Positions 4,267 to 19,915 of a stretch of 20,000 nt of DNA are shown piece by piece. The DNA comes from an uncultured virus (IMG/VR IMGVR_UViG_3300024303_000041). Taxonomy: Duplodnaviria > Heunggongvirae > Uroviricota > Caudoviricetes. A program made the position numbers and the translations under genes. Where the stretch lies: IMG/VR virus record IMGVR_UViG_3300024303_000041. One strand, given 5' to 3'. The notes under the pieces were generated by a model, which saw nothing but the letters and a program-made list of their open reading frames with translations, searched no databases and had not been told where the DNA came from. Each line of letters opens with the position of its first letter. Position 1 is the first letter of the stretch.

Positions 4267-5064
4267 ATGCAAAGTATAAAACAAACAAAAGCAATAATAA
4301 ACCAAAGCACCCCGACAGAAGAAAACCCAATAATAATAAAACCCTTTGAAGATTACAAAAGCTATAACAAATATTATAAAGCCCGCGTAATATATAACAC
4401 TAACTTTATAAGACCCCAAATTTATATATGCCGGTCTTATAATACAGATATTGCAATATTTAACCGCATGAACGGGACATTATTATTAAATATTGAATGG
4501 TACAACAGCAGCAAAACCACCGCCGCACAGCTAGACCATTTTATATTTAAATATTGTTTTAAACCAATAAGAACAATTTATTTAAAAGAATCCATTTTTA
4601 ATGAATTAACCGCCGCTTTTTATGGGTCTGATATTGGATTATATGAGAACAAAGAGTACAATATAATAAAATTATATGAACATGATAAAAACATCATGGA
4701 AACTTTAAAGAATCCATTTTTAACACTTCCTGAAAAACTGGAAGAGTTAGAACCATATGTTAATTTAAATATTGATGCTGGGAGAGAATTTAAAACCACT
4801 ACCGAAAGGATATTTATTTATACTGCTAGTAACTCCAGAAGCAATATAAAATTTAAAATAATAAGACGCTTTAAAAAATATAAGCAAGTTAAAAACTATC
4901 ATAAGAAAATAACCTATGAAAAATTAATACTTCCAGATGAACCAAATTTTTATAATGACCCTAGAAAACAAGCCGATAAAACATTATTTAACGGCTATGA
5001 TATGGGAGTTACAAACACTAAAGATTTAAGAAAACAAACATTTAATAATTATAGAATGTTTTAA
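4267..5064 (+). CDS. Viral hypothetical protein, 265 aa (SY.T.IA...S.TT..Q...F motif reminiscent of phage early proteins)
   Basis: ORF track; RBS GGAGTTGTAA. Confidence 0.85.
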   Translation: MQSIKQTKAIINQSTPTEENPIIIKPFEDYKSYNKYYKARVIYNTNFIRPQIYICRSYNTDIAIFNRMNGTLLLNIEWYNSSKTTAAQLDHFIFKYCFKPIRTIYLKESIFNELTAAFYGSDIGLYENKEYNIIKLYEHDKNIMETLKNPFLTLPEKLEELEPYVNLNIDAGREFKTTTERIFIYTASNSRSNIKFKIIRRFKKYKQVKNYHKKITYEKLILPDEPNFYNDPRKQADKTLFNGYDMGVTNTKDLRKQTFNNYRMF

Positions 5065-5085
5065 AACCATTGGAGGCGTTAAATA

Positions 5086-5166: not shown

Positions 5167-5180
5167 AGGAGTTGTAAGCA

Positions 5181-5282
5181 ATGAAAAATAATAATTTAAT
5201 ACTAACCGCAGCAATAACCAGCATGATAATAAATAGTTTAAGCTTTTTAATTATTGCATATTGGTTTTTTTACTGCTTTTAA
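5181..5282 (+). CDS. Small hydrophobic peptide, 33 aa
   Basis: MKNNNLILTAAITSMIINSLSFLIIAYWFFYCF; AAGGAGTTGTAA RBS motif shared with ORFs 3951 and 4267. Confidence 0.55.
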   Translation: MKNNNLILTAAITSMIINSLSFLIIAYWFFYCF

Positions 5283-5366
5283 AATTGAAGCTATTTTAAT
5301 ATAAAACAAACCACCATTAAAAACCATCACTAATTTTAAAACAAATATACTAGGAGTAAAGAAAAA

Positions 5367-5606
5367 ATGAAAAAATATAACCCTTTTAAAAAAACCAGCA
5401 GCAAAACCGCCCCAATAAGTGAAAAATTAACAGATTTAAAAAACTGGTATAAATCCAGCAAATACAATTATAAAACCCGGTTTTATATAAACATTGCATC
5501 ACCTAGAAAAACCGCAGCAATGAAAAACAAATTTAATAAAAAAAATATTCATTATTTTTATTATATGAATCCCACCGCTGCAAACCTAGAAAAACAATTA
5601 ATATAA
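5367..5606 (+). CDS. Basic viral hypothetical protein, 79 aa
   Basis: ORF track; AGGAG RBS. Confidence 0.65.
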   Translation: MKKYNPFKKTSSKTAPISEKLTDLKNWYKSSKYNYKTRFYINIASPRKTAAMKNKFNKKNIHYFYYMNPTAANLEKQLI

Positions 5607-5628
5607 AAAAATTGGAGGACTGGAAAAA

Positions 5629-5778
5629 ATGAATATTAATTTAAATTTATTCATGAAAAAAAATTTTAACAGACATTTAAAAAATATGAATCATCAAACC
5701 AGAAGAACCCGCAACTCCATTGCATCAGTTAAAGCATATAGGCAAAGCATTTGCAGAAAGGTTTATCCCATACCTTGA
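5629..5778 (+). pseudogene. Viral small ORF interrupted by the plasmid-derived insertion (chimeric 49 aa)
   Basis: GGAGG RBS and ATG at 5629. The first 26 codons are viral, and the rest reads into the repeat out of frame with the helicase. Confidence 0.5.
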
Positions 5779-6355
5779 AAGCCAATCCGATGAGTTATAC
5801 GATTTGGAGGACTTAACAATAAAGATATTGGAGCAAATTGAAAAAGATTTCCAAGTTTCATTTAATCTGAATACTAAAATTAAACAGAAATTAACCAACC
5901 AAAGCAGAGATACTGGAAGTATTATAAAAACTGGCTTAAATAAAATGTTTACCAGTAGTTATAAAATCCCATATGGTCGCAGTCATTATGACATAGATGA
6001 TTTTATAAACAGCACAGATGTTGGGGCTGTCAGGTGGCTTGATTATCAGCCAAAGAACAAAGTATTTATTATCAAGGTTAATGAGTTTGAACAAGACATA
6101 ACAAAAATTGTGGGGGAACATAAACCAATAGCTGAAACAATGGAACTGTTAAACATCAAGTATGACAATAACAATGGGAAAAACATTAAATTTAGAGGTA
6201 TTCCAACAAAAGCAGTTAAATTGTCAATCTTTGATTTAACATACAAGTTATTTAATATAAGAGTATCAGAATTTGAAGAATTACAAGCCGAAGAAGAAGA
6301 AAAGGAACAGAGAGAAGCAGAAGCAAACCAAATACTAAACAGAGAATCAATATAA
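5708..6355 (+). pseudogene. 5'-truncated duplicate of the helicase C-terminus (211-aa ORF 5720-6355 in the track)
   Basis: Identical to the C-terminal residues of ORF 13080-15227 except one K/N. It has a TTG start without an RBS and lacks the ATPase motifs. Confidence 0.85.
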
Positions 6356-6729
6356 ATGGTTGAAATATTAAAGGTAGTGCCTTTCTACCTACTTTCTACC
6401 TATTTTCTACCTAACTGGCTACCTTGAAAAACAAATCTAATAGCTCCAATGATTAAATAAACAATAAATAAATAAATAAATGCTTATAAGTATATATTTA
6501 TTTATAATTATACACCCCTATAATTGTTTGAGTTATTGGATTTAATAGGTAGTTTGCAAGGTAGAAATATAGGGGGTCTGTATTTTTTTAAAATTTCTAC
6601 CTTGAAACACGAAAAACCATTAATATTGCTTCAATTGATAATTAGGGCAATATTAGGGAGTTTCCCAAAGTAGAATTTAGGTAGAAATTGCTTCTACCTT
6701 TGGTATTTTTTCATCTACTTTGGAAAATT
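6356..6729. promoter_or_regulatory. Putative plasmid replication origin (iterons plus AT-rich unwinding element), copy 1
   Basis: TTCTACCT at 6383, 6394 and 6405 (11-bp period), 6595 and 6692. Inverted AGGTAG(AA) at 6372, 6547, 6559 and 6679. A 12-bp inverted repeat at 6557-6568/6593-6604. AT-rich tract at about 6452-6512. It lies directly downstream of the helicase gene end. Confidence 0.7.
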
Positions 6730-6975
6730 ATGTCTGCCAATGATTGTGCATACTACCCAAATTGTGAGTTATGCAAAAGCGGTGAAAAATGTATTTTAAA
6801 ATTTCCAAAAGTCAATAAAGACATCTTAAAATTAATAATTTGGGAAATTGAATATAAACAACACCATAACAAACCAATTGAATTAAATAAAATACTGGAT
6901 TGGTATAAAACCAATTATGGTGTTGCAGTTACCAAATCAGAATTACAATTATATACACCAAACATAAAATTATAA
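6730..6975 (+). CDS. Cys-rich (C-x5-C-x2-C-x5-C) putative zinc-binding protein, 81 aa
   Basis: ORF track 6688-6975; ATG at 6730 preferred (MSANDCAYYPNCELCKSGEKC...). Confidence 0.65.
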   Translation: MSANDCAYYPNCELCKSGEKCILKFPKVNKDILKLIIWEIEYKQHHNKPIELNKILDWYKTNYGVAVTKSELQLYTPNIKL

Positions 6976-6980
6976 ACATT

Positions 6981-7154
6981 ATGAGAAGCCGGAAATATGA
7001 AGTTATGGGAATTGATGGGAAATTATTTAAAAGACTACAACAACAAGCCAATAGGGAAAACATCACCGTTGATGTTTTAGTACATCGATATTTAAGTTAT
7101 GGCTTAACCAATTGGGCTGATGTTATAGCTGACTTTTACAAACCAATAAAATAA
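6981..7154 (+). CDS. Small RHH-like protein, 57 aa
   Basis: Manual translation MRSRKYEVMGIDGKLFKRLQQQANRENITVDVLVHRYLSYGLTNWADVIADFYKPIK. It starts 5 nt after the previous stop and is not in the ORF track. Confidence 0.6.
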   Translation: MRSRKYEVMGIDGKLFKRLQQQANRENITVDVLVHRYLSYGLTNWADVIADFYKPIK

Positions 7155-7188
7155 AAATTAAATTTACTAATGGGGAGAATTATATAAT

Positions 7189-7365
7189 ATGAAAACTACA
7201 ATTAACATAGATGATGAACTATTAAAAGCGGTTAAAATAAAAGCCATCGATAATGAAATGACCATTACCGATTTAATAACATTATATTTGAAATTTGGAT
7301 TAACAAACCATATTAATAAAAAATCTGTTGAATTTAGATATAAAAAATTAATTAAAAAATCCTAA
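7189..7365 (+). CDS. CopG/RHH DNA-binding protein, 58 aa
   Basis: MKTTINIDDELLKAVKIKAIDNEMTITDLITLYLKFGL... is a classic RHH N-terminus. GGGGAG RBS. Not in the ORF track. Confidence 0.85.
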   Translation: MKTTINIDDELLKAVKIKAIDNEMTITDLITLYLKFGLTNHINKKSVEFRYKKLIKKS

Positions 7366-7427
7366 AAATTACCAACCTTTCATTACCAACTTTCCTAAAA
7401 AATTACCACCCTGAAAAAATATTTTTT

Positions 7428-7470
7428 TCCTGATCCCCACGCACCACCTATGCGTTATCAGGATTTTTTT
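7428..7470 (+). terminator. GC-rich hairpin plus T7 (terminator and/or structural signal at the strand-skew switch)
   Basis: TCCTGAT/ATCAGGA outer stem and ACGCA/TGCGT inner stem, followed by a T run. Confidence 0.55.
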
Positions 7471-8129
7471 ATATCATAATATTTTTTTGGGGTTCTGGTT
7501 TGGGTTTGGTGTTGGATTGTATATTATTATTAATGATGGTGTTTGTGGTGTAGGGTTGAAAAACTGGTTTTTTATGTGGTATTTTGTTTTACTTCTTATT
7601 ATATATGGGAACTTGTTTTAGTGTTGTTTATTGTGCATCAATTTTTAATAGCTTATTCATCTTGTTTAGTGTTGTTATTGTTTGGTTCTTATTTTTTTTA
7701 TCTTAAAAAATTTGGATTTTTATATAAATCGATTCATATATTATTTTTTTTTTAATTGTGGTGTTTTTAGATGGTTTTTTTATGGTGTTGTGGTTTGGTT
7801 TACTTCTTACCATTGGTACAATTTTTTTATTTTTGTTTTATGACTGTTATTTTTTCATCTAAAAAAAATTTGGCTTTTATATATTTGTTTTCTATATATA
7901 CAATTTGTTTTTAAGTTATTATGGTTGCGATTGGGCTTATTTTATGTTTTCAATAGCTTTGGAGTTATTAACCATATTTACAGAAATATATATTAATGCT
8001 TCAATCCATACATATTAAACAATCACCACAAAAAACATAATAGCTTTAAAATTCCAGTTGTATTAATTTATTTTTCCAAAAGAGAGAAAAAAAAGAGTTT
8101 AAAACCTGATAATTAACATAAATAAAAGG

Positions 8130-8483
8130 GTGTTAAACTTGACAGACAACGGAGTTTATATATTTGATAGTGAAACCGATTTTTTAAAAGTTATAGATGA
8201 ATTAAGCAAAGAATTTAAACAATCAACAGCCAATAAAACCAATGTGATTTATATTTCAAAAAAATTGGAAACAATAAACGAACTTAAAAAGGAAATAGCT
8301 ATTTTAAATCTATTTAAAATCAATGCTTTTAATGGTTACAGAACCAATAAAACTATTAGGGTTTGTTTATCTGATAATAAACAGTATATTCATATGACAT
8401 ATAGGTTTAATGCGGTTACTTGTGGTACAATTTACGATAAATTAAATCGTTACCTTAAAAAAAGGCAGAATATTTATATTTAA
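8130..8483 (+). CDS. Plasmid hypothetical protein, about 117 aa
   Basis: ORF track; start codon uncertain (GTG or TTG). Confidence 0.65.
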   Translation: MLNLTDNGVYIFDSETDFLKVIDELSKEFKQSTANKTNVIYISKKLETINELKKEIAILNLFKINAFNGYRTNKTIRVCLSDNKQYIHMTYRFNAVTCGTIYDKLNRYLKKRQNIYI

Positions 8484-8501
8484 TAATGGTGGTGCTTTGG
8501 A

Positions 8502-8675
8502 ATGGTTGAACCGATTAATTATAATGGTGTTGATGGTGTTTTTATTCCTGCTAATGAGTTTGAATATATGAAAACCACCATTAAAAAGAATGGGGAGTTA
8601 TTAAACCAGTTATTAAATAAGTTTTCAGAAGAAAACCCAACAGATTTGTTTAATATTTTGGATAGTTTTAAATAA
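8502..8675 (+). CDS. Plasmid hypothetical protein, 57 aa
   Basis: MVEPINYNGVDGVFIPANEFEYMKTTIKKNGELLNQLLNKFSEENPTDLFNILDSFK; GGTGGTG RBS-like motif upstream. Confidence 0.55.
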   Translation: MVEPINYNGVDGVFIPANEFEYMKTTIKKNGELLNQLLNKFSEENPTDLFNILDSFK

Positions 8676-8943
8676 ACAGATTATCCAACTTATTTTTTTT
8701 ATTTTTCCTTTTGAATTGTACAAAATAGCTTTAAAATTTATTCTAAAAAAAAATTAAAAACCATATATGCTTTTTTTATATTATTCACCACCTAAAAAAC
8801 TTGTACAACCCATATAAAAAATACACCCAAATATACGGCAATGTGTGTGCGGTTGCTTTTTCCAATCTTTGTGATGTATTGGGTGTAACTTCAACCTATC
8901 AATTGTTAATGTTTCATATATTAGAATAGCCATAAAATACATT

Positions 8944-9597
8944 ATGGGGCTTGAAACTGGAATAATTAAAGGAAATAAGACAAAATATTTTAATAAAACT
9001 GAAAACAAGGAAATCATTAAACATTCTAAATATGTAAACTTGGGAGTTAATAGTAACTTTAACATAGGTGATGAAGTAGTAGTATTATCTAAAAAAGAAT
9101 ATAACAGCATACTTAATGGCAATGATGATGTAGTAACATTAAACGAGAGAATAAAAGAATTAACTAATATTATTGATGATAAAGACAATATGATTAACAA
9201 TATTAATGGTGAGTTGGAGCAACTAAACAAAGAGATCAGGAACAACAATTCTGAAAACATCGGCAACATTGCCAAAATATCTGCATTAACAGAAGAACTT
9301 AAAACAGTTGAATTGGAATTAACAGAACTTAAAACAATACTTAAACAATATGATATTAACACCGCTGATGGTTTAAACAATCTGATTAAAGAGTTTAGAA
9401 TAATATTAAACTATCTTAATGATTGTGTAATAGCATATGAGAAGCAAAACAGATTAAAAAGATTCTTAAAACAAAATCCTACAATCGATATAGCTAAACC
9501 ACCAACAAACCTATTGGATTATAGGGGCAACCCATATATTAACAATGATGGTGATTATATCAACACCAATGTTAATGACTCCAATAAATCTGAATAG
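8944..9597 (+). CDS. Coiled-coil protein with a small N-terminal beta domain, 217 aa
   Basis: ORF track; heptad-rich central region (LNERIKELTNII...LTEELKTVELELTELKTIL). Confidence 0.85.
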   Translation: MGLETGIIKGNKTKYFNKTENKEIIKHSKYVNLGVNSNFNIGDEVVVLSKKEYNSILNGNDDVVTLNERIKELTNIIDDKDNMINNINGELEQLNKEIRNNNSENIGNIAKISALTEELKTVELELTELKTILKQYDINTADGLNNLIKEFRIILNYLNDCVIAYEKQNRLKRFLKQNPTIDIAKPPTNLLDYRGNPYINNDGDYINTNVNDSNKSE

Positions 9598-9779
9598 CTA
9601 CAACCTAAATGATTAATTGGTTTTATGCTCCTGCTTTTACAGAATACTTATTTTATTTGATGGTTTATTAACTGCAATACTATTGGAGCAGTTGCAATAT
9701 CTATATTATAACATTGTTAATTATTAGTTTACTTTAATCTATATTGTGCAGTTGCTATATATTAAATCACTTTATTTTA

Positions 9780-10615
9780 TTAATCTATTTGCCAATTACA
9801 TTATAATTATAAATCCAATTGATAAAATCAATAGTTACACCCATTATATTTGCATATCCAACAACCCAAATATAATTTACTTGAAACATTGGCAGTTACT
9901 GGAAATATTAACCATACTGTTTTTTTATCTGCTGATGATTCACCAGTACCATTGGCAATGGTGGTGATGATTTCCCAAAGTTTTTATTATTTGGGAAATT
10001 TCCCAAAGTTTCCCAAAGTGTATGTTTTCCAAATTTTCCCAAATTTTGACAAAATTAATAATGTTAAACAATGTTTAATTTTTTATAATAAATTACCCTA
10101 AAACTTGAACAATTAACAATTAATAAAAGTCAGATTTAACCACCCTAAAAGTTGCCAAATTTGTTGAAATTTGCCCCATATCAAATGCAATTTTTATACT
10201 TTTTTCTTAATTTTTCAAATTTTGGGAAATCCAGTTATAGAAATTTGGGGCAATTTTAATGCAACTTTGGTGTAATATTTCAATAGCTTTGGGGTTGGGG
10301 TTGTTATAATTCTTAATCCAAAGTATTAAAATTATTGTACAAGTTGGGGAAATGGTGGTTTATTGGTCGGCTTATCTGTATGTCCAGACTACCACCAAAA
10401 ATGGTGGAATTGTACAACCCATAGAATAATAGAACTTTTGGGGCAAAGTACCAAAATAATTAAAAGGTTCTTTGATAATTTGGCAACTTGCCAAAAATTC
10501 ATTATGAAACTTTTAAAATTTTGAAAATCAAGAAATTAAACAATTTTTAATATTTTGAACAATTACCAATATGGGCAGATTGCCAAAACTTCACAATAAT
10601 TGTAATTTGGATTTT
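9780..10615. repeat. Non-coding array of TT(T/G)CCCAAA/TTGCCAAA-type motifs in both orientations
   Basis: Palindrome TTTGGGAAATTTCCCAAA at 9990-10007, TTTGGCAACTTGCCAAA at 10479-10495, and more than 15 single copies. Confidence 0.65.
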
Positions 10616-10718
10616 TCACCATTAGTGTAAATTTATAAATATGGATTATGTACAAAAATAATTACTATGGTAATATGTACAATTACTATTTTAAAATAAA
10701 ATTGGATTGGTGGAAATT

Positions 10719-10916
10719 ATGACAAATACAAAAAACAACAATAACATTAAAGAAATTAGAATTAATATGACCGTTGAAAATAAAGCGTTTATGGAGTTGG
10801 TCTGCACAAGTAAAGGAATCAATAAACACGAATATATTAACAACTTGATTGATAAGGAATTAAAAAAATCTAAAATTAATTTGCCTGATGTACTGGCAGA
10901 ACTTGAAAAATTATAA
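10719..10916 (+). CDS. RHH-like protein, about 65 aa
   Basis: KEIRINMTVENKAFMELVCTSKGINKHEYINNLIDKEL pattern; TATA box TTTATAAA near 10633. Confidence 0.7.
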   Translation: MTNTKNNNNIKEIRINMTVENKAFMELVCTSKGINKHEYINNLIDKELKKSKINLPDVLAELEKL

Positions 10917-11200
10917 AAAAAAATATATTTTTTCACACTGGTTGAAGTTTCAGGAATCAACACCAACAATGCTGATGGGTTGGGCTTCTTGATCACTACG
11001 GAAAATATTAAAATTTTTATGAAATGTTTATAATTTTAATGGTTCATCTACATTAAGAATATTTTAAATTTTAAATTGAATATGTACAAATTATTTTAAT
11101 AAAAATAGCTATTGATTAATTAATTTTATTGTAATATCTGCCAATATAATTGGTGGGAATTTCAATTAAAATGATAGTTACAATATGAGGAGTTGAAACA

Positions 11201-12028
11201 ATGGCGGAATATTACAGCCTTGAAAACAAAGAGCAAACAACATTTAGAATTGATAAAAATTTATATGCTGATTTATCCAACTACGCTGATATAAAAGGAT
11301 TACACAAAGCCGAAGCAATCAACGAAATATTATTTAAGTTTTTCAAAGGTACAACCTTAACAAATACTTATTTAATGAATAGGGGAGGATTATATTTTAA
11401 AATCCCTTTGGATTTGGAAATAAAAAAGGAATTTATTAAAAATAAAACTAAATTAAATGATGATGCAACCATGAACATTATTGGTAGTAATGCAACATCT
11501 GTGAAAATAAAAAGAATCCCAAATAATTTAGATGTTTTTATTGATGGTGGCAGTGTCGGGAGTTACAAAAGCACCAAAGATGGTGTTTTACATAGTGGAG
11601 TAGATTTTATATTTATTGCAGATGTATTAAAAAAACCAAAAACGATACCAAAAAACAAACTTGATATAACTTTAACCGATAGCTTATATATTTTTTATTT
11701 TGAAGTTAAAGCAGATAACACAACCGATGTATATTTAATCAACCCCATTGAAGCCATTAATAAATTATCTGATGTAAACAATAGGATTGTTGGCGATAAA
11801 CTGGCGGAAATTGTGGCGATATTGGAGGACACCCAACAAACAACCAACTACGAGTATAAAGCAACAATGGAGAATTTATATAAAAATAATGATTATGTGA
11901 GCAGAAAAAAGGAAATTGAAGTTTTAAATACTTCTTGGCTATATATTGAAATGTTTTTAAAGGAAAATAGAGTAATTAAAAGGTTTAATGGTGATAATAT
12001 TTTAATTAGTCCATCAAGTCCAGAATAA
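11201..12028 (+). CDS. 275-aa protein with an N-terminal RHH domain and an unknown C-terminal domain
   Basis: QTTFRIDKNLYADLSNYADIKGLHKAEAINEILFKFF; RBS GAGGAG. Confidence 0.85.
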   Translation: MAEYYSLENKEQTTFRIDKNLYADLSNYADIKGLHKAEAINEILFKFFKGTTLTNTYLMNRGGLYFKIPLDLEIKKEFIKNKTKLNDDATMNIIGSNATSVKIKRIPNNLDVFIDGGSVGSYKSTKDGVLHSGVDFIFIADVLKKPKTIPKNKLDITLTDSLYIFYFEVKADNTTDVYLINPIEAINKLSDVNNRIVGDKLAEIVAILEDTQQTTNYEYKATMENLYKNNDYVSRKKEIEVLNTSWLYIEMFLKENRVIKRFNGDNILISPSSPE

Positions 12029-12341
12029 TAAAAAAAAGATAATTATGTAACTGTAAAAGGAATACTTATAAATAATATGTACAACAAAAATTATAACATA
12101 AAAATTAATAAATATAAAAAAAGTAGTTATTGGAGTTTCAAGAACCCCCATTCTTGAAAAACCATAAAAAACAATCCCGTAAAAATAGGGTTTTTAGAAA
12201 TTACTACTATTTTTATTATGAGCAATATTTAAATTGCAATCATTGAGAATGCATTTGGTATATGTTTATATAATTGGGTTTGTTGGTTTATTTACTCCTA
12301 TTTAATAGCTATTTTTTTAAAATAAAAGAGGAAAATAAAAT

Positions 12342-12599
12342 ATGAGTTACAAAACCAAAAATGGCGATGTTAAAAGCCAATTACATTTATATTTAACTCC
12401 TGAATTATACAACGAGTTAAAAGAAACTGTTTTAAAGTATAATAACAACACCTATGATAAAACCACAATTAGTGAATTAATAAGATTTCTGATTACTGAA
12501 TTTATCAAAAATTACAATACTGGTGTACATTATAAAGTTGAATTTTTGGAAAACTTACAAGAGTTTAGGGAAACCACCAAAGGCGGTGTTAAACAATGA
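12342..12599 (+). CDS. CopG/RHH-like regulator at the head of the helicase operon, 85 aa
   Basis: QLHLYLTPELYNELKE...TTISELIRFLITEF; ATGA overlap with the next ORF. Confidence 0.8.
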   Translation: MSYKTKNGDVKSQLHLYLTPELYNELKETVLKYNNNTYDKTTISELIRFLITEFIKNYNTGVHYKVEFLENLQEFRETTKGGVKQ

Positions 12600-12901
12600 A
12601 TTTAGAATTAACATCATCAACATTGATTAAAGAAATTCATAATACTTTAATGGAAAACAGCACCATTAATAATGCTATCCGCTCCAAAAAGGACAAAAGC
12701 CCAATAAGGAATAGCACAATAATTGAATTGGCATTAATTAACTTATATGAAAATATCCATAATAAAAAGGATTTTGATAATTTAATATTGAATGTGTCCG
12801 ACTTGTCAGACATAGAAGCCCCACAAGTCAATTATATTGATGACATCAACAGAATTAGGAGAGTAGAACTATTAAACGAGTTGCAGAGGTGCAATATATA
12901 A
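12596..12901 (+). CDS. Hypothetical protein, 101 aa (possibly degenerate RHH)
   Basis: ORF track; overlapping start/stop with the upstream gene; NSTIIELALINLY resembles RHH helix 2. Confidence 0.75.
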   Translation: MNLELTSSTLIKEIHNTLMENSTINNAIRSKKDKSPIRNSTIIELALINLYENIHNKKDFDNLILNVSDLSDIEAPQVNYIDDINRIRRVELLNELQRCNI

Positions 12902-12919
12902 AAACACTTAAAAACAAAT

Positions 12920-12986
12920 CTTAAAAAATAGCGGATTGGTGGGAACTTCTGAAACTGGAATTAATCCCACCAACATTGAATAATTA
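12920..12986 (-). ncRNA. Putative counter-transcribed antisense RNA (about 65 nt) against the helicase leader
   Basis: Minus-strand TTTATATA box at 13009-13016, then a 9-bp stem 12936-12944/12965-12973, then a U6 tract (A6 at 12923-12928 on +). Confidence 0.55.
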
Positions 12987-13079
12987 ATATTAATTTTTAT
13001 TCAACATCTATATAAAGTTTATTTAATATCTGCTATTTTTTGGGTTTGTTTCAGATAATTAAAAGGAGGTTTAATATTT

Positions 13080-15227
13080 ATGTTGTCTGAAATAATAGAA
13101 CCAACAATTATGGTGGCTGAATATGATAATTTTTATTTAATTTATGATGAATTGGAGTATCATTTAGGAGTTGCCAAAGAAAATACTATAATTTCACATC
13201 TGCCAGTATCAACCAAACCCCAACAATTAACAGACATATTAAACAGTGCAGATTATGACGGAATAGAAACAATAAACAACAAAAAAGATAAAACCAAAGC
13301 GGAGCAAGATTTATTATTTTTATATAGTCATATGGATTCCAATAGCTCCAACAATGGTGAAAACATATTATTTGAATTAATCACAATACTTGCGGATATT
13401 TCAGAAGAAATAAAACAAAACGGCAGTAGCTCCACCAATAAGGATATTTTAAACAATATCAATGATGACAAAGTAATCAGCAAAATTAAAGAATTATCAG
13501 AAGCCAAAACCATTGAAAAGAATAGCAAAATATTTTTAGCTGATGGAGGAAAAAAAGGGGATATAATACAAGTAAAGAATAACAAAGAACTAAAAGAGGG
13601 TTTATACTATGAAAAAATGATTAAAAAAGGTGATGATTACGAACCCCATTATACATTAATAGGAAATATCACCATACAAGAATTAAAATTAACTTACGAT
13701 AAGTTAAATTTATTTACACCAGTTACAACAATAAAATACACCAATACAACAACCAACCAAACTGTAACATTAGAGAAAAAGCCATATGAAGCAATAGCTA
13801 ACAATTTAATAAATGATAGGTTGATTGATTCAAATAGTTTAGGAGTTGAAAACCTATTAAATAAAATATGGGTTCAGGGAGTCAATAAGATTGATTTCAT
13901 AACTGCTGAAACAGATTTATTAAAAGATGGCTTCTTTATGGATATGGAAAACAATAAAGTATTATCAAACAATGTGTTTAATGATTTAGAAACCACCCCA
14001 AAAGATATAAAAGAAGCTATAAAGTTATTTAATGAGTTAATTAAAAATCGTGGAACTGCTATTCCCAATGATTGCACATTATTTAGGTTTATGCTTTGGA
14101 GTCCTTTTGCATACTGCCTGAAACAATTGGGCTTTACTGATGGGCTTTATAGTATGGTTTTATGGGGAGTAACTGACACCAACAAAACTGGATCAAGTGT
14201 TATGTTTTCAAATTTGTATACTGATAAAGATATAACATTACAAAAAGCCAACACCCAAAGTGCAATAGGTACAAGGTTGGGGGAAAATACATTCCCTTTA
14301 ATCCTTGATGAAGCCAAAGACAATTTAACCAACCCCAATGATGAGGAATTTAACAAAAACATTGTTACTGATGATATAGGGAGAGCAGTTAAAGACAGAA
14401 CCAATAATAATTTAATGGTTAGTTTTCCAGCTTTGCGATTAACTGTAAGGACATTAAACCAAGATATTGAGTATAAAGATGAGTTTTTAAAAAGGCACAA
14501 GGTTTTATATTATGATGGCAGTATGCAGGTTAAAGAAGCCGACAAACTGGAATTTAACAAGAAATATAAACCAAATAGCCCCGCAACTCCATTGCATCAG
14601 TTAAATCATATAGGCAAAGCATTTGCAGAAAGGTTTATCCCATACCTTGAAAGCCAATCCGATGAGTTATACGATTTGGAGGACTTAACAATAAAGATAT
14701 TGGAGCAAATTGAAAAAGATTTCCAAGTTTCATTTAATCTGAATACTAAAATTAAACAGAAATTAACCAACCAAAGCAGAGATACTGGAAGTATTATAAA
14801 AACTGGCTTAAATAAAATGTTTACCAGTAGTTATAAAATCCCATATGGTCGCAGTCATTATGACATAGATGATTTTATAAACAGCACAGATGTTGGGGCT
14901 GTCAGGTGGCTTGATTATCAGCCAAAGAACAAAGTATTTATTATCAAGGTTAATGAGTTTGAACAAGACATAACAAAAATTGTGGGGGAACATAAACCAA
15001 TAGCTGAAACAATGGAACTGTTAAACATCAAGTATGACAATAACAATGGGAAAAACATTAAATTTAGAGGTATTCCAACAAAAGCAGTTAAATTGTCAAT
15101 CTTTGATTTAACATACAAGTTATTTAATATAAGAGTATCAGAATTTGAAGAATTACAAGCCGAAGAAGAAGAAAAGGAACAGAGAGAAGCAGAAGCAAAC
15201 CAAATACTAAACAGAGAATCAATATAA
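13080..15227 (+). CDS. Putative plasmid replicative helicase/Rep, AAA+ ATPase of DUF927/Cch-like type, 715 aa
   Basis: Walker A-like MVLWGVTDTNKTGS, Walker B FPLILDEA, sensor-like RTLN and arginine-finger-like FLKR. Strong AAGGAGGT RBS. Adjacent to iterons. Confidence 0.75.
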   Translation: MLSEIIEPTIMVAEYDNFYLIYDELEYHLGVAKENTIISHLPVSTKPQQLTDILNSADYDGIETINNKKDKTKAEQDLLFLYSHMDSNSSNNGENILFELITILADISEEIKQNGSSSTNKDILNNINDDKVISKIKELSEAKTIEKNSKIFLADGGKKGDIIQVKNNKELKEGLYYEKMIKKGDDYEPHYTLIGNITIQELKLTYDKLNLFTPVTTIKYTNTTTNQTVTLEKKPYEAIANNLINDRLIDSNSLGVENLLNKIWVQGVNKIDFITAETDLLKDGFFMDMENNKVLSNNVFNDLETTPKDIKEAIKLFNELIKNRGTAIPNDCTLFRFMLWSPFAYCLKQLGFTDGLYSMVLWGVTDTNKTGSSVMFSNLYTDKDITLQKANTQSAIGTRLGENTFPLILDEAKDNLTNPNDEEFNKNIVTDDIGRAVKDRTNNNLMVSFPALRLTVRTLNQDIEYKDEFLKRHKVLYYDGSMQVKEADKLEFNKKYKPNSPATPLHQLNHIGKAFAERFIPYLESQSDELYDLEDLTIKILEQIEKDFQVSFNLNTKIKQKLTNQSRDTGSIIKTGLNKMFTSSYKIPYGRSHYDIDDFINSTDVGAVRWLDYQPKNKVFIIKVNEFEQDITKIVGEHKPIAETMELLNIKYDNNNGKNIKFRGIPTKAVKLSIFDLTYKLFNIRVSEFEELQAEEEEKEQREAEANQILNRESI

Positions 15228-15751
15228 ATGGTTGAAATATTAAAGGTAGTGCCTTTCTACCTACTTTCTACCTATTTTCTACCTAACTGGCTACCTTGAA
15301 AAACAAATCTAATAGCTCCAATGATTAAATAAACAATAAATAAATAAATAAATGCTTATAAGTATATATTTATTTATAATTATACACCCCTATAATTGTT
15401 TGAGTTATTGGATTTAATAGGTAGTTTGCAAGGTAGAAATATAGGGGGTCTGTATTTTTTTAAAATTTCTACCTTGAAACACGAAAAACCATTAATATTG
15501 CTTCAATTGATAATTAGGGCAATATTAGGGAGTTTCCCAAAGTAGAATTTAGGTAGAAATTGCTTCTACCTTTGGTATTTTTTCATCTACTTTGGAAAAT
15601 TATGTCTGCCAATGATTGTGCATACTACCCAAATTGTGAGTTATGCAAAAGCGGTGAAAAATGTATTTTAAAATTTCCAAAAGTCAATAAAGACATCTTA
15701 AAATTAATAATTTGGGAAATTGAATATAAACAACACCATAACAAACCAATT
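14580..15751 (+). repeat. Right copy of the 1,172-bp direct repeat
   Basis: Matches 5708-6879 at offset 8,872. Confidence 0.97.
15228..15601. promoter_or_regulatory. Putative plasmid replication origin, copy 2
   Basis: Same sequence as 6356-6729. Confidence 0.7.
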
Positions 15752-15781
15752 AAAACAAACCATCACTATAAAAAACACTAA
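15602..15781 (+). pseudogene. 3'-truncated copy of the Cys-rich protein gene
   Basis: Identical to ORF 6730 up to ...HHNKPI (15751), then reads into flanking sequence (KTNHHYKKH*). Confidence 0.75.
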
Positions 15782-15820
15782 AAAGATTAATAATAACTAA
15801 TCAAAGGAGTTAAATATATT

Positions 15821-15994
15821 ATGTTATCTAGAAAAATTTATTATAAAACCCGCTATAATAGGGACTTAAGAACCACCCCAAAGGCAAAACTAATATTAAA
15901 AATTAAACTTAAAAATCAATTGGATTATAAGCTATTAAACCATTATATATTCAATGGAACCAGCACCACCAAAAGGAGGCATAAACAATTATAA
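15821..15994 (+). CDS. Basic viral hypothetical protein, 57 aa
   Basis: MLSRKIYYKTRYNRDLRTTPKAKLILKIKLKNQLDYKLLNHYIFNGTSTTKRRHKQL; AAGGAGTT RBS like the early genes left of the insertion. Confidence 0.55.
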   Translation: MLSRKIYYKTRYNRDLRTTPKAKLILKIKLKNQLDYKLLNHYIFNGTSTTKRRHKQL

Positions 15995-17350
15995 TACTAA
16001 TATTCTTAATAATAACCATCATTGCAATAACTGCAATAATAGAATATAACATAAAACTATATCTCATGATCATACTAATAATAACAATAATATTCTGGAA
16101 GCTATTATATTTTACCATATAATAGCTATTGCTTTTTTTAACAACCAACAATATAACAATGTTAAGTATACCACCAGAATAAAACACCCAAACCACAATA
16201 AAATATAACACATCAAATAAAATACAACCCTCAAAATATACCAGATTCAAGCGCCGCAGCCATCACAGGCATAAAAATAATTTAAGTGAATGTTAAAGAA
16301 GCAGTTATATATTGTAGTATTTTATATAATATTCTTTTATTATTTCTTCATTGCATTAGTTAATATATTATTGCTTCATTACTTCAGCATCATATTATTA
16401 GATTATTATAGTTAATATTCTATTATTTTATTATCTTTTTTTCTTTTTTTTCATTAAATATTCTTTATTAACTCCAATAATAAACACTAAAAAAGACCAT
16501 ATTTAATAAACATATCATAAAAATATTATGTTTATAGAACAAAAACACCACTAAAAAATAATGATTTAAGCGGGTAAATATGAAAAAAACACTTTAAAAT
16601 AGATGAATATTAATAAAAACATCACAAAAAAACGGAAAACCCGCCTGACACACATGCTCGTATGTTTCTTGGGGTTTTCTGTGTTTTATAACATTGTTAT
16701 ATTATTATTATATTTTGTATTGGGAAGTATTGAGAAGTATTGGTATTGTTTGGTGGGTGTTGGTGGTTGGTGAGTTTTTTGGGTTTCGCAGTTTAGAATG
16801 GTTTGTTGGGTTATTGGGGCTTTCTCCGCTAATATAACATTGTTATGTTCCTATTGATACCCTTAACTCCCTTGTATAAGCGACATATTAAAACTATACC
16901 TCTAGGGGTATGCAAAAGTAATACTTTTTCTTATATATATTATTATTAGTTTATTTTTTTTTATTGTTGGGGATACTTATGTATCATATTGTATTTTATT
17001 GTATATATAATTTATTGTAATATTTTTTTTACTTTTTGATTTTTTTAAGAATTTTTTGAAAAATTACTGTTTAATTTTTTTGAAATTTTTTTGAAAATTT
17101 TTCAGTAATTATTATAATATTATTTACACTCTTACGAGGGTGCATGCTGAAACCTTTTTAAAGTAAGATTGTTAAGATGTTTTTTTTTATTGAGAAGGCG
17201 TTTTTACCAATAGTATCAATAGTAGCAATAGGTCTTTTGGCATGCCTAAAAAATATGGTTTGGGTAATCCCTGCTGTTAAGAGTAATATGGGTAGATAAC
17301 ACAAGCAATCATTTTTTTAAAACATAATTCACATCTCACCAGTCTTAGTT

Positions 17351-18156: not shown

Positions 18157-18585
18157 ATGACAGAACATAATCCCATATTACTCAAAGGTAAGCAAGGGGA
18201 ACTCTTGATTGAGAAGATTTGTGATGATGCTAGAAGATGTTTACCAATAGAATCATGTTTTGTTAAAAACGGTATCAAATTAGATACTTATCGTAGGTGG
18301 CTTAGATGGTATCGTGAAGAGGTTGAAGAGGAGTTAGATGATACTCCGATAATTAACTTGTTTTCAAAAGTTTATCAAGCTGAAAGAGAATCCGAAGCAG
18401 TAATACTTGACATTGAAGTAGATCATGCTTTGAATGGTAGTCTGAAAGCAACTCAACATTTACTGGATAACAGGTTTGGTTATGGTAAGAAGAAATCTGA
18501 AGTAGAATTGAATGTTAAAGAGGATACTCCTATTAAATTTGAAATTGTTGATATGAAACCTTTGGATAATGATGTAGATGAGTAA
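18157..18585 (+). CDS. terS: Terminase small subunit
   Basis: N-terminal HTH (GIKLDTYRRW), A.QHLL..RFGY motif, and position immediately upstream of and overlapping TerL. Confidence 0.8.
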   Translation: MTEHNPILLKGKQGELLIEKICDDARRCLPIESCFVKNGIKLDTYRRWLRWYREEVEEELDDTPIINLFSKVYQAERESEAVILDIEVDHALNGSLKATQHLLDNRFGYGKKKSEVELNVKEDTPIKFEIVDMKPLDNDVDE

Positions 18586-19915
18586 TGTTGCGACTATTGA
18601 GATGACTCCAACACAGCAACGTTGGATTAATGATAGAACACGTGAATTGTTAGTAGAAGGCAGTGCAGGTAGCGGTAAAACTATCTTTGCTTGTTTGAAA
18701 GTCATTAAATACGGTTTGGAAAATAAAAATGCCTCTATTTACATTTATCGTAAAACATTACCGTCATTGAAACGTACATCATGGAAAGAAATCCGTAATA
18801 TTTTGAATAATTATCATATTCCTTTTGATGAGAATAAATCAGAAGGGAAGATTACTTTAACTCAAACTGGCTCTATAATGTATTTTGGTGCCTTGGACGA
18901 GCTGTCTAAGGTGAGATCTATCAATGCAGACCAAATATACATTGAGCAGTGCGAGGAATTAGTTGATACTGAGTTCTACACTGAGTTAATGCTTCGTTTA
19001 GGAAGGGGAGAAGCTTCTAAAGCAAAAGGCGGATATTCCCAAATGCTAATCGTAGTACAACCTGAAGATGAAGAACATTGGATTTATCAACGTTACCATG
19101 AGTACAAAGATGCAACAACAAAATACGAAAGACAACGTAAGGAAGCATTGGCTGAGAACAAACCTTACAAGTCTTATGATGAAATTTTAGCAGGTATTCA
19201 AGCTCGTCGTAAAAAAGCTCACTTCCATTACAGTGAGAACTTAAAACTACCTAAATTCCAAAGGGATTATTACGATGACTTAAAATATGAAGATTACGAA
19301 TTATGGCTCCGTTATAGTGCGGGGCAATGGGGAAAACTCTCCAATATTATTTATCACAATTATGATACAGTATTTCCTAAAAATCCTCATTATGAATTAA
19401 TAAGCTTTGGTGCAGATTTTGGTTTTAACAATCCTAGTGCATTCTTATTACTCGGTTGGAATGATACAGAATGCTATGTTATAGATGAAGTATACGAACG
19501 AAAATTAACTAATAACCAATTAATTGAAAAGTGTACAGACATGTTATCCCAAAATCAATTACTACCCAGTCAATTAGACACGGGGTATGGTGATGCAGCA
19601 GAACCTGACCGTATACAAGAATTTAACGATGCAGGATTCCCAATGGATAAAGGAATCAAAGATGTGAATGCTAAAATCACCACTACAAAGCAAACAAAGA
19701 TACATATCCACCCTCGTTGTGTTAATACGATTAAAGAGATTAAAGGTTATGTTTACAAGAAAAATAACGAAGGAATAGTTACTGACGAACCGGCGAAATT
19801 CAACGACCACGCTATGGACGCATTAGGTTATGGTGTCTACGGGGTTCGTGGTGCTTTATCCCCAAACAAACCATATAACGAAGATTATTACGAAGATAAC
19901 ATTATGGTGTTTTAA
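18578..19915 (+). CDS. terL: Terminase large subunit, PBSX/SPP1-like family
   Basis: Walker A VEGSAGSGKT; RNase H-like nuclease motifs GADFGFNNP, GDAAEPDRI and NDHAMDALGY. Confidence 0.95.
   Translation: MSNVATIEMTPTQQRWINDRTRELLVEGSAGSGKTIFACLKVIKYGLENKNASIYIYRKTLPSLKRTSWKEIRNILNNYHIPFDENKSEGKITLTQTGSIMYFGALDELSKVRSINADQIYIEQCEELVDTEFYTELMLRLGRGEASKAKGGYSQMLIVVQPEDEEHWIYQRYHEYKDATTKYERQRKEALAENKPYKSYDEILAGIQARRKKAHFHYSENLKLPKFQRDYYDDLKYEDYELWLRYSAGQWGKLSNIIYHNYDTVFPKNPHYELISFGADFGFNNPSAFLLLGWNDTECYVIDEVYERKLTNNQLIEKCTDMLSQNQLLPSQLDTGYGDAAEPDRIQEFNDAGFPMDKGIKDVNAKITTTKQTKIHIHPRCVNTIKEIKGYVYKKNNEGIVTDEPAKFNDHAMDALGYGVYGVRGALSPNKPYNEDYYEDNIMVF

What the first reader, a model, noticed from the sequence alone, without database searches (positions are those of the whole stretch)
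5708..15751. A whole integrase-less plasmid embedded in a probably archaeal tailed-virus genome, bounded by a 1,172-bp direct repeat
Seen: 5708-6879 recurs at 14580-15751 (offset 8,872; one mismatch, 5734G/14606T). The left copy begins mid-helicase and the right copy ends in the middle of the Cys-rich gene, so circularising one unit gives an 8,872-bp replicon with every gene intact. No integrase, transposase, relaxase or short att site is recognisable. The flanks are viral early-type genes on both sides, and TerS/TerL lie about 2.4 kb downstream. Established: shared homology between phage and plasmid allows cointegrates and high-frequency plasmid transduction in bacteria. Inference: the virus first captured a 1.17-kb plasmid fragment, which then served as a landing pad for single-crossover integration of the whole plasmid. 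Alternatively, a 1.13-unit piece of a plasmid multimer was captured in one step. Either route gives a reversible virus-plasmid cointegrate or hitch-hiking satellite, probably in a methanogen.
Basis: partly seen in the sequence, partly recalled or inferred. Interest (0 to 1): 0.88.

Follow-up and report, generated by a model that had tools for sequence, protein, structure and literature searches.

The report
Small plasmid inside a methanogen virus
An 8.9-kb self-replicating plasmid of gut methanogens sits, bracketed by a 1.2-kb repeat, inside the genome of a tailed Methanobrevibacter virus, which could let the plasmid travel in virus particles; short-read assemblies alone cannot yet prove that the two are one molecule.

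Summary
The repeat is real: 5708-6879 equals 14580-15751 with one mismatch, at an offset of 8,872.

- **The unit is a replicon of its own.** Its 715-aa protein has 66 close relatives. None lies on a contig over 18.2 kb, and 25 lie on contigs of 8.0-9.9 kb.
- **Both junction-spanning genes are whole only in the circular form**.
- **The protein is a replication helicase.** It folds like the self-loading replication helicases of staphylococcal islands. Seven iterons around an AT-rich core lie just downstream of it, inside the repeat.
- **The flanks are a Methanobrevibacter tailed virus**.
- **A related virus has an empty site.** The two flanking genes lie about 0.3 kb apart there, against 10.2 kb here.
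- **The joined arrangement recurs.** The exact junction proteins occur on contigs of 31.7, 51.0 and 69.6 kb.

No read or contig spans a whole repeat. An assembler walking a virus-plus-free-plasmid graph would give the same contig.

Verdict: the virus-plasmid recombination is certain, and a true cointegrate is about 55% likely. It is a new archaeal variant of a known kind.

The parts
4267..5064 (+). Virus gene (265 aa), conserved in the related virus L004
   Evidence: 31% identity over 258 aa to L004:1569-2447, E=2e-24
5367..5606 (+). Last conserved virus gene left of the insert (79 aa, small basic protein)
   Evidence: 61% identity to L004:2697-2957. The exact protein is on 25 contigs. Variants in the same 90%-identity cluster are on contigs of 62.0 and 63.5 kb.
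5629..5778 (+). Small virus ORF with a GGAGG ribosome-binding site. It runs across the virus|repeat junction out of frame with rep, so it is interrupted by the insert.
   Evidence: Sequence and translation. L004 has an intact 98-aa ORF at this position.
5708..6879 (.). Left copy of the 1,172-bp direct repeat R
5720..6355 (+). Truncated 3' part of rep (C-terminal about 211 aa; K at the position of residue 509). No evident ribosome-binding site.
   Evidence: The exact 211-aa product is on 11 JGI contigs, longest 69,625 bp.
6383..6699 (.). ori-like region, left copy: 7 copies of TTCTACCT. Three are tandem at 11-bp spacing. Four lie beyond an AT-rich core at about 6448-6512, two of them inverted.
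   Evidence: 14 matches in the window, all inside the two R copies. 0.54 expected; 0 of 200 shuffles reach 14. Sequence.
6730..6975 (+). Cys-rich 81-aa gene, intact across the R|plasmid junction
   Evidence: The 13 other listed cluster members (81-82 aa, on contigs of 1.5-17.8 kb) all have this C-terminus.
6981..7365 (+). Two small ORFs (57 and 58 aa). The second is like a ribbon-helix-helix or VapB antitoxin protein (weak).
   Evidence: DUF6364 E=2e-4 and VapB_antitoxin E=8e-4, both below the Pfam cut-offs
8130..9597 (+). Plasmid genes of unknown function (117, 57 and 217 aa; the last is coiled-coil)
   Evidence: The exact 217-aa protein is on 31 contigs, and its cluster mates are on contigs of about 8.9-9.0 and 17.6 kb.
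9971..10045 (+). Cluster of TTTCCCAAAGT repeats in a non-coding stretch. The motif also occurs in R.
   Evidence: 13 matches at <=1 mismatch against 1.15 expected
10707..10916 (+). Small regulator-like ORF (69 aa)
   Evidence: RepB-RCR_reg E=1.6e-3, weak; phrog_35455 E=1.4e-4
11201..12028 (+). 275-aa protein with an N-terminal Arc-like ribbon-helix-helix
   Evidence: phrog_582 E=1.4e-5. The exact protein is on 29 contigs.
12342..12901 (+). Two small ORFs (85 and 101 aa) directly upstream of rep
   Evidence: no family match
13080..15227 (+). rep: a 715-aa replication initiator and helicase (P-loop core at about aa 350-480, C-terminal domain 501-715), intact across the plasmid|R junction
   Evidence: 78 homologues. 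Invariant G363, K369 and N460. Model pLDDT 94. Foldseek top hits Cch 1.7e-9 and SaPIbov1 Rep 4.6e-9.
14580..15751 (.). Right copy of R, holding the second ori-like region at 15255-15571
15602..15781 (+). Chimeric 59-aa version of the Cys-rich gene across the R|virus junction
   Evidence: Its C-terminus differs from those of the 14 other listed cluster members. The exact protein is on 8 JGI contigs, longest 69,625 bp.
15821..15994 (+). First conserved virus gene right of the insert (57 aa)
   Evidence: 51% identity to L004:3270-3437, E=4e-15
18157..19915 (+). Putative small and large terminase subunits
   Evidence: phrog_4102 E=0.002. Terminase_3 1.1e-16, Terminase_3C 2.7e-8, phrog_2 1.4e-38.

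Best explanation
**What it is.** The 8,872-bp unit is a small circular plasmid of Methanobrevibacter. It replicates with its own initiator helicase. That protein's C-terminal domain and the iteron origin just downstream of the gene together make up the 1,172-bp repeat.

**Where it sits.** In this lineage of a roughly 60-kb tailed, probably temperate Methanobrevibacter virus, 1.13 plasmid units lie in a short variable spacer. The spacer is between two conserved virus genes, 2.4 kb upstream of the terminase genes.

**How it arose (inferred).** The layout virus-R-plasmid-R-virus is what one homologous crossover gives, between a circular plasmid and a virus that already carries R. Capture of a piece longer than one unit from a plasmid concatemer gives the same layout.

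**How it behaves (inferred).** Recombination between the two R copies should release the circle again and leave a virus with a single R. The virus encodes a RecT annealing protein. The population is therefore expected to mix cointegrate, single-R virus and free plasmid. Packaging of the cointegrate, or of headfuls that cover R-plasmid-R, would carry a plasmid that has no integrase and no recognisable transfer gene into new cells.

**Shown:** the repeat, the replicon identity, the empty site, the virus host and the recurrence in several assemblies.

**Inferred:** that all of it is on one molecule, that it is reversible, and that it is packaged.
For: 1. **Repeat.** Exact except for one base.
2. 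**Free unit.** Of the 66 close Rep relatives, none is on a contig longer than 18.2 kb and 25 are on contigs of 8.0-9.9 kb. Near-identical Rep variants (1-3 substitutions) are on contigs of 8,502 and 8,880 bp.
3. **Circular gene order.** The full rep crosses plasmid|R and the 81-aa gene crosses R|plasmid. The 13 other listed cluster members all carry the R|plasmid-type C-terminus.
4. **Replicon.**
 - AlphaFold model with pLDDT 94.3.
 - Foldseek: SCCmec Cch 1.7e-9, SaPIbov1 Rep 4.6e-9, then NrS-1, PriRep1, poxvirus E5/D5 and MCM.
 - Walker A Lys369 and motif C Asn460 are invariant in 85 relatives.
 - 10 of 40 distant relatives carry an N-terminal Prim-Pol domain.
 - Seven iterons flank an AT-rich core starting 28 nt after the rep stop. 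This is the layout described for SaPI origins (PMC9371898, passages).
5. **Empty site.** In L004 (a 63.7-kb viral contig, TerL 77%) the homologues of ORF5367 and ORF15821 are 312 bp apart. They are 10,214 bp apart here.
6. **Host.** A TerL relative (70%) with further shared genes lies in a 121-kb contig of a Methanobrevibacter MAG.
7. **Recurrence.** The exact full Rep, the truncated Rep at virus|R and the chimera at R|virus each list a longest contig of 69,625 bp. Rep variants are on contigs of 51,027 bp (one variant on 5 contigs) and on a further 31,660-bp contig.
8. **Depth.** In two low-depth runs the virus and plasmid parts are similar. X13: left flank 4.5, plasmid 4.3-5.7, right flank 6.2-9.1. 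X14: 2.5-4.7, about 7, and 8.9.
9. **Recombinase.** RecT is on the same contig, E=3e-28.
Against: - **No spanning record.** No contig or read spans a whole R with unique sequence on both sides. Logan contigs end 30 nt past the mismatch or at the R edge.
- **Same junctions either way.** The four junctions (virus|R, R|plasmid, plasmid|R, R|virus) are identical for a cointegrate and for a single-R virus plus a free circle.
- **An unresolved branch elsewhere.** An independent viral-database contig (L003) equals window 15625-20000. It starts 127 nt inside R, so that assembly left the branch unresolved.
- **Possible assembler effect.** As I recall, SPAdes-type assemblers traverse a simple loop a number of times set by coverage. 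Recurrence in one pipeline's assemblies is then weaker evidence than it looks. No call tested this.
- **Depths uncoupled in cattle.** In two bovine runs the virus-like pieces lie at depth 33-96 and the plasmid-like pieces at about 7-9. The relatives there are mostly not joined one to one.
- **Size.** 69.6 kb is about 10 kb more than the contigs of related viruses (59.3-63.7 kb). That may exceed what the capsid takes. Whether those contigs are complete genomes was not checked.
Confidence: 0.55

Rival explanations
1. Assembly path through a shared segment. The virus carries only one copy of R (virus-R-virus), and the plasmid is a separate circle in the same samples. The assembler entered the loop at R, walked once round the plasmid and left again, which produced virus-R-plasmid-R-virus.
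For: - The graph and all four junctions are the same as for a true cointegrate.
- Logan contigs break at the mismatch or at the R edge.
- L003 starts 127 nt inside R and was not joined to anything upstream.
- Free-size contigs of 8,502 and 8,880 bp carry near-identical Rep.
- Virus-like and plasmid-like relatives have uncoupled depths in two bovine runs.
- The virus-linked copy of the polymorphic base is always G in the 12 contigs (11 + 1) that carry the two listed 211-aa fragments. The full-length Rep has G or T. This would fit a separate, polymorphic plasmid pool.
Against: - The joined order was produced in several assemblies of different contig length: 31,660 (twice), 51,027 and 69,625 bp.
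- If loops are resolved by coverage, this needs plasmid and virus at about 1:1 each time. The two runs that could be measured do show similar depths.
- Even under this reading the virus holds a 1.17-kb piece of plasmid that is 99.9% identical, so recombination with the plasmid happened recently.
Confidence: 0.35
2. The 8.9-kb element is a dedicated satellite of this virus family and not an ordinary plasmid. R in the virus is then a selected docking or replication site, not an accident. The element depends on the virus for spread, and the virus may use the element's Rep and ori.
For: - R is exactly the origin-recognition module: the Rep C-terminal domain plus the iteron ori.
- The best fold matches are Rep proteins of phage satellites (SaPI) and of SCCmec.
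- The insert lies just upstream of the packaging genes.
- One Logan contig of run X18 joins virus-like sequence next to window 2004 to a homologue of the plasmid ORF that starts at 12342. The shorter side of that joint is only 26 nt.
Against: - No capsid-remodelling, packaging or integrase gene was recognised in the unit.
- No Rep relative was found in the viral contig collection.
- Related viruses lack R altogether.
- Most relatives are on plasmid-sized contigs without virus genes.
Confidence: 0.07
3. The segment is the virus's own replication module with an internal 1.17-kb duplication, not a foreign plasmid.
For: It is contiguous with virus genes on both sides in a single contig.
Against: - The related viruses L004 and L006 and the Methanobrevibacter prophage L019 lack the whole module.
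- All unit genes that were tested recur on contigs of about 8.9 kb.
- The gene order is circularly permuted relative to the insert.
Confidence: 0.03

Closest known systems
Halovirus PhiH L-region and plasmid pPhiHL
   Same: A segment of a tailed archaeal virus is bracketed by repeated elements (ISH1.8). It circularises to a 12-kb autonomous plasmid that keeps one repeat copy (PMC6210493, passages).
   Different: There the repeats are insertion sequences and the segment is the virus's own immunity region. Here the repeat is part of the plasmid's rep gene and ori. The segment belongs to an independent plasmid family that related viruses lack.
Homology-facilitated plasmid transduction and phage-plasmid cointegrates in bacteria (P22, SPP1, phi11 with small plasmids). 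Recalled; not checked in a paper here.
   Same: A stretch shared by phage and plasmid allows a single crossover. The result is phage-repeat-plasmid-repeat-phage, which is packaged and resolves in the recipient.
   Different: Those cases are mostly laboratory constructs or rare events in bacteria. This is a natural case in an archaeal virus, with a plasmid-derived landing pad. Two searches listed no paper whose title or abstract reports one for archaeal tailed viruses; the 165 and 3 papers that hold the terms were not opened.
SaPI Rep and SCCmec Cch self-loading replication helicases with a downstream iteron origin
   Same: The fold matches. The P-loop motifs are present. The iterons lie immediately 3' of rep on both sides of an AT-rich core, some of them inverted (PMC9371898).
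   Different: About 10% sequence identity, and no Pfam or PHROG family match. The host is an archaeon. The N-terminal 300 aa are unrelated. There is no integrase and no recognisable link to a helper phage.
pRN1-type archaeal plasmid replicon
   Same: Small regulator genes lie upstream of a large Rep, and an essential region lies just downstream of rep (PMC4234260, abstract in the search listing).
   Different: The pRN1 Rep is a PrimPol-helicase fusion. This Rep has no detectable PrimPol domain. Only 10 of 40 distant relatives have one.
pSSVx and pSSVi satellite plasmids of fuselloviruses (recalled)
   Same: Small archaeal plasmids that spread in the particles of a helper virus.
   Different: They are packaged as separate molecules, not joined into the helper genome, and the viruses are spindle-shaped, not tailed.

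Membership tests
Self-loading replication initiator helicase (SaPI Rep / SCCmec Cch / D5-like AAA+) | P-loop NTPase motifs: Walker A lysine, Walker B acidic pair, motif C asparagine | tested here: met
   G363, K369 and N460 are invariant and E411 nearly invariant in 85 relatives. This protein has N in place of the second Walker A glycine.
Self-loading replication initiator helicase (SaPI Rep / SCCmec Cch / D5-like AAA+) | Fold similar to solved members | tested here: met
   Model pLDDT 94.3. Foldseek 5dgk_A E=1.7e-9 and 8tch_B E=4.6e-9, then NrS-1, PriRep1, E5/D5 and MCM; 235 chains at E<=0.001. TM-scores are only 0.25-0.40, so the match covers domains, not the whole chain.
Self-loading replication initiator helicase (SaPI Rep / SCCmec Cch / D5-like AAA+) | Iteron origin immediately downstream of rep, with an AT-rich centre and inverted iterons | tested here: met
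   Seven TTCTACCT copies at 6383-6699, five on the + strand and two on the - strand, around an AT-rich stretch at 6448-6512. The criterion comes from PMC9371898.
Self-loading replication initiator helicase (SaPI Rep / SCCmec Cch / D5-like AAA+) | Sequence-family membership (Pfam or PHROG profile) | tested here: not met
   No family for this protein or for any of 22 relatives at E<=0.001. No PDB sequence match beyond weak P-loop hits.
Self-loading replication initiator helicase (SaPI Rep / SCCmec Cch / D5-like AAA+) | Helicase and origin-binding activity | not testable with these tools
   Needs biochemistry.
Autonomous circular plasmid | Occurs without the virus as unit-length DNA | tested here: met
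   25 of 66 close Rep relatives have a longest contig of 8.0-9.9 kb, and none exceeds 18.2 kb. Near-identical Rep is on contigs of 8,502 and 8,880 bp.
Autonomous circular plasmid | Demonstrated circularity (terminal overlap or reads across the closure) | not tested
   The ENA, Logan and JGI contigs could not be fetched. Circularity is inferred from the permuted gene order.
Autonomous circular plasmid | Own replication module | tested here: met
   rep plus the iteron ori.
Virus-plasmid cointegrate by homologous recombination | Whole plasmid bracketed by direct repeats of a plasmid segment | tested here: met
Virus-plasmid cointegrate by homologous recombination | Related viruses have an uninterrupted site | tested here: met
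   L004: 312 bp between the flanking genes, against 10,214 bp here. L006 shows the same adjacency.
Virus-plasmid cointegrate by homologous recombination | Single molecules span flank-R-plasmid and plasmid-R-flank | tested here: inconclusive
   Only k=31 contigs could be laid, and none spans R. Large contigs with the joined order exist but could be assembler paths.
Integrative element (integrase plus att sites) | Integrase or transposase inside the unit, and short att repeats at its ends | tested here: not met
   No such family in the 13 + strand unit ORFs that were scanned. The ends carry only 6-7 nt of ambiguous similarity. A distant Rep relative, L002, does sit in an element with a tyrosine integrase.
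Tailed virus of Methanobrevibacter | Terminase large subunit, and relatives integrated in Methanobrevibacter genomes | tested here: met
   Capsid and tail genes are not on this 31.7-kb contig.

The most novel reading that the evidence does not exclude
The virus keeps the plasmid's origin-recognition module (Rep C-terminal domain plus iteron ori) as a standing docking site. A plasmid with no integrase and no recognisable transfer gene moves in and out of the viral genome by repeat recombination and is spread inside virions. This would be the first natural route of plasmid transduction seen in methanogens. The plasmid's Rep may also fire the copy of the ori on the viral DNA, which would couple the replication of the two elements.
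Probability: 0.25. Interest if true: 0.8.

Novelty: new variant of a known kind. Interest (0 to 1): 0.6.

Why it matters
Methanobrevibacter dominates methane production in the guts of ruminants and humans. It has very few known plasmids, no recorded natural gene-transfer vehicle of this kind, and poor genetic tools.

- **A new plasmid family.** This is a widespread 8.9-kb family with a compact, recognisable rep-ori module. I found no description of it in the paper searches. It is a candidate backbone for shuttle vectors.
- **A transfer route.** If the cointegrate is real, tailed archaeal viruses can carry whole plasmids by simple homology. That gives horizontal transfer in gut methanogens a concrete, testable mechanism.
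- **A caution for catalogues.** It is also a worked example of how a shared 1.2-kb segment can join, or appear to join, two mobile elements in metagenome assemblies. Virus catalogues should take this into account.

Tried and rejected
**Searches that found nothing**
- Megablast of the unit against the plasmid and phage collections: no match.
- Rep relatives in the viral contig collection, with a single protein and with an alignment: none.
- Rep relatives in species-representative genomes: none.
- Rep relatives in JGI metagenome contigs: only one distant locus, L002. It shares only rep with the unit.
- Exact-pattern scans of viral contigs for an R-internal stretch and for the left-flank stretch: none.
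- Rfam and tRNA scans of the window: nothing.
- The search of earlier findings by place, by sequence and by words: nothing.
- Paper searches for a described Methanobrevibacter plasmid of this kind or an archaeal virus-plasmid cointegrate: nothing relevant in the listings. The 2023 compendium of methanogen viruses is not in the library and was not read.

**Attempts that gave too little**
- The first structure model, from 22 close sequences, was poor in the ATPase core (pLDDT 30-40). Its fold search was not significant. A second model replaced it.
- The profile of 85 relatives gave only weak P-loop hits against PDB sequences.

**Ideas dropped**
- I guessed that runs X13 and X14 (word shares 0.68 and 0.67) held the virus without the plasmid. 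Laying them showed both parts at low depth.
- Uncovered bins, and the joints with a shorter side of 21-26 nt (5135>17462, 5356>13999 and others), are not used as evidence.
- The X17 record that joins 5380 to 17093 (depth 2.7) is only a hint of a further variable-region variant.
- One Rep relative (P0042) is labelled 'Bacilli bacterium' in a MAG. I read this as mis-binning of a small plasmid, because R is 99.9% identical to DNA in a virus whose relatives sit in Methanobrevibacter. A bacterial host for some relatives is not excluded.
- Microhomology at the junctions (AAACCA on the left, AACAAACCA on the right) is too short and AT-biased to interpret.

Full report
**Observation.** A base-by-base comparison at offset 8,872 shows that 5708-5733 and 5735-6879 are identical to 14580-15751. 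The single mismatch is 5734 G against 14606 T, and identity collapses immediately outside these limits. The window is the right-hand 20 kb of a single 31,660-bp contig of 29.8% G+C. The contig has no terminal repeats, and the window differs from it at one base, 12077.

**What the unit is.**
- *Gene layout.* The repeat (R) begins at codon 501 of a 715-aa ORF (13080-15227). It ends after codon 50 of an 81-aa Cys-rich ORF (6730-6975).
- *Rep relatives.* The 715-aa protein matches no Pfam or PHROG family but has 78 homologues in the large protein collection. Of the 66 close ones (42-80% identity), none has a longest contig above 18.2 kb. The split is 25 at 8.0-9.9 kb, 5 at 10-12 kb, 3 at 14-18 kb and 33 shorter.
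- *Exact look-ups.* Rep variants with 1-3 substitutions lie on contigs of 8,502, 8,880 and 13,248 bp. The other plasmid proteins have cluster mates on contigs of about 8.9-9.0 and 17.6-17.8 kb.
- *Circular order.* The 13 other listed members of the Cys-rich protein's cluster all carry the C-terminus encoded across the R|plasmid junction. The version across R|virus (59 aa) is unique to this arrangement. The unit is therefore whole only as a circle or a tandem array, and it exists elsewhere without the virus.
- *No integration genes.* None of the 13 + strand unit ORFs scanned matches an integrase, transposase or relaxase at E<=0.01.

**Replication module.**
- *Model.* A model from 22 close sequences was poor in the conserved core. 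A model from 85 diverse relatives reached pLDDT 94.3.
- *Fold.* Its best matches are the SCCmec Cch helicase (E=1.7e-9) and the SaPIbov1 Rep (4.6e-9). The NrS-1 helicase region, PriRep1, poxvirus E5/D5, ASFV PrimPol and MCM follow.
- *Motifs.* G363, K369 (Walker A) and N460 (motif C) are invariant, and E411 (Walker B) is nearly so.
- *Distant relatives.* Of 40 scanned, 10 carry an N-terminal Prim-Pol domain and 1 a DnaG-type zinc finger.
- *Origin.* Starting 28 nt after the rep stop, the 8-mer TTCTACCT occurs seven times. Three copies are tandem at 11-bp spacing on one side of an AT-rich stretch. Four lie on the other side, two of them inverted. All 14 matches in the window fall in the two R copies, against 0.54 expected.
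- *Comparison.* This is the layout described for SaPI origins, whose Rep C-terminal winged-helix domain binds the iterons (PMC9371898, passages).
- *Conclusion.* R is thus the Rep C-terminal domain plus the putative ori plus the start of the next gene.

**What the flanks are.**
- *Virus genes.* The right flank holds a putative TerS and a clear TerL. The rest of the contig holds RecT, an HNH nuclease and a weak integrase-like protein on the other strand.
- *Relatives.* TerL relatives occur in 16 viral contigs and in a 121-kb contig of a Methanobrevibacter MAG. That contig shares further genes with this virus but no plasmid gene.
- *Empty site.* In L004 (63.7 kb, TerL 77%) the gene order is the same. 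The homologues of ORF5367 (61% identity) and ORF15821 (51%) are separated by 312 bp holding one 98-aa ORF. They are 10,214 bp apart here.
- *At the junction.* A small ORF with a good ribosome-binding site starts at 5629 and runs out of frame into R.
- *Conclusion.* The insert lies in a variable spacer of a Methanobrevibacter tailed virus.

**Is it one molecule?** This is the open point.
- *Runs available.* Twenty-four public runs hold words of window 1-10000. Eleven hold all of them and are flagged as possible sources. All are served only as k=31 contigs.
- *Near-identical, low-depth runs (X13, X14).* Contigs cross virus|R, plasmid|R and R|plasmid. They stop 30 nt beyond the mismatch or at the R edge, and none spans R.
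- *Depths there.* They are similar for the flanks and the plasmid part. X13: 4.5 / 4.3-5.7 / 6.2-9.1. X14: 2.5-4.7 / about 7 / 8.9.
- *Bovine runs (X17, X18).* Relatives whose listed pieces differ from the window by up to about 7% have virus-like pieces at depth 33-96 and plasmid-like pieces at about 7-9. They are not joined one to one there.
- *Independent contig.* L003 equals 15625-20000 and starts 127 nt inside R. That assembly left the branch unresolved.
- *Recurrence.* The exact full Rep, the 211-aa truncated Rep and the 59-aa chimera each list a longest contig of 69,625 bp. Rep variants are on a 51,027-bp contig (one variant on 5 contigs) and on a second 31,660-bp contig. That all of these proteins sit on one and the same 69,625-bp contig is my inference from the equal length.
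- *Size.* 69,625 minus the 10,044-bp insert is 59,581, which is within the range of the related viral contigs (59.3-63.7 kb).
- *Caveat.* As I recall, SPAdes-type assemblers traverse a simple loop according to coverage. Repeated joined contigs would then mean a repeated ratio near 1:1 and not direct linkage. No call tested this.
- *Odds.* I put a real cointegrate at 0.55 and an assembler path at 0.35. Under either reading the virus carries a 1.17-kb plasmid fragment that is 99.9% identical, so recent recombination between the two elements is established.

**The mismatch.** It is codon 509 of Rep: K in the virus-linked truncated copy and N in the full gene here. Both listed 211-aa fragments carry K; together they are on 12 contigs. 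Full-length Rep carries K or N, on large contigs and on plasmid-sized contigs alike. The site lies only 26 nt from the R edge, so it always travels with its flank and does not discriminate between the models.

**Mechanism.**
- *Origin (inferred).* A circle carrying R and a virus carrying R give virus-R-plasmid-R-virus by one crossover. Two illegitimate joins to a piece longer than one unit from a plasmid concatemer give the same product. The order of events cannot be told.
- *Reversal (inferred).* The two 1,172-bp repeats and the virus RecT make pop-out and re-entry likely.
- *Packaging (inferred).* The insert lies directly upstream of the packaging genes. Packaged DNA that covers R-plasmid-R could regenerate the circle in a new cell even if the oversized genome is not viable.
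- *Replication (inferred).* A virus-borne plasmid ori might also be fired by the plasmid's Rep.

**Comparison and novelty.**
- The closest archaeal case is the PhiH L-region. It is flanked by ISH1.8 and circularises to the plasmid pPhiHL (PMC6210493, passages).
- The closest mechanism is homology-facilitated plasmid transduction in bacteria (recalled).
- The replicon resembles the SaPI and Cch rep-ori modules in fold and layout but belongs to no described sequence family. It also parallels the pRN1 replicon organisation (PMC4234260, abstract).
- The listings of five paper searches showed no description of this plasmid family, nor of a plasmid joined to an archaeal tailed virus. The library lacks many subscription papers, and only a few of the hits were opened.
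- I rate it a new variant of a known kind, with interest 0.6.

Noticed in passing
window 3009-3305: A dense cluster of repeats of about 28 bp built round TTTACCTACCATA(A/T)ACTTA, with at least 8 copies, in a non-coding stretch of the virus. It may be the virus's own origin or a regulator array. Its core CTACC resembles the plasmid iteron TTCTACCT.
   Followed up: no
window 810-1393: The DNA methyltransferase gene (phrog_799, E=2e-34) is split over two frames (810-1001 and 971-1393). The homologue in the Methanobrevibacter prophage L019 is in one frame. This is a frameshift, a pseudogene or an assembly error.
   Followed up: partly
window 12077: The window reads A where the laid contig reads C. 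This is the only difference in 20,000 bases.
   Followed up: no
L002 1-13064: A distant Rep relative (58%) sits in what looks like an integrated element. It holds a 554-aa tyrosine integrase and a 1,059-aa type IIG restriction-modification enzyme, next to a cellular aldo/keto reductase gene. The Rep family therefore also occurs in integrative elements.
   Followed up: partly
window 5453-5487 and 15826-15860: The two virus genes that flank the insert (ORF5367 and ORF15821) are themselves weak paralogues, both small basic proteins. Each is preceded by a shared motif, AAACCATCACTA, at about 5323 and 15758, which may be a viral promoter element.
   Followed up: no
window 20000 / L003 end: The 31,660-bp contig and the independent 4,376-bp viral contig L003 end at exactly the same base, just inside the gene after TerL. 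This suggests a reproducible assembly-graph branch there, from strain variation or another repeat.
   Followed up: no
relatives' contigs: Several plasmid proteins have cluster mates on contigs of 17,631 and 17,770 bp, about twice the unit length. These may be assembled dimers or two-unit tandems.
   Followed up: no
window 5380 / 17093 in run X17: One low-depth contig (2.7x) joins 5380 to 17093 with 14 other letters between. This would be a virus variant lacking everything from ORF5367 to about 17.1 kb. The whole stretch may be a hypervariable cargo region.
   Followed up: no
window 9971-10045, 6661-6671 and 15533-15543: A second repeat family, TTTCCCAAAGT, clusters in a non-coding part of the plasmid and recurs in R. 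It may be an operator or a partition site.
   Followed up: no
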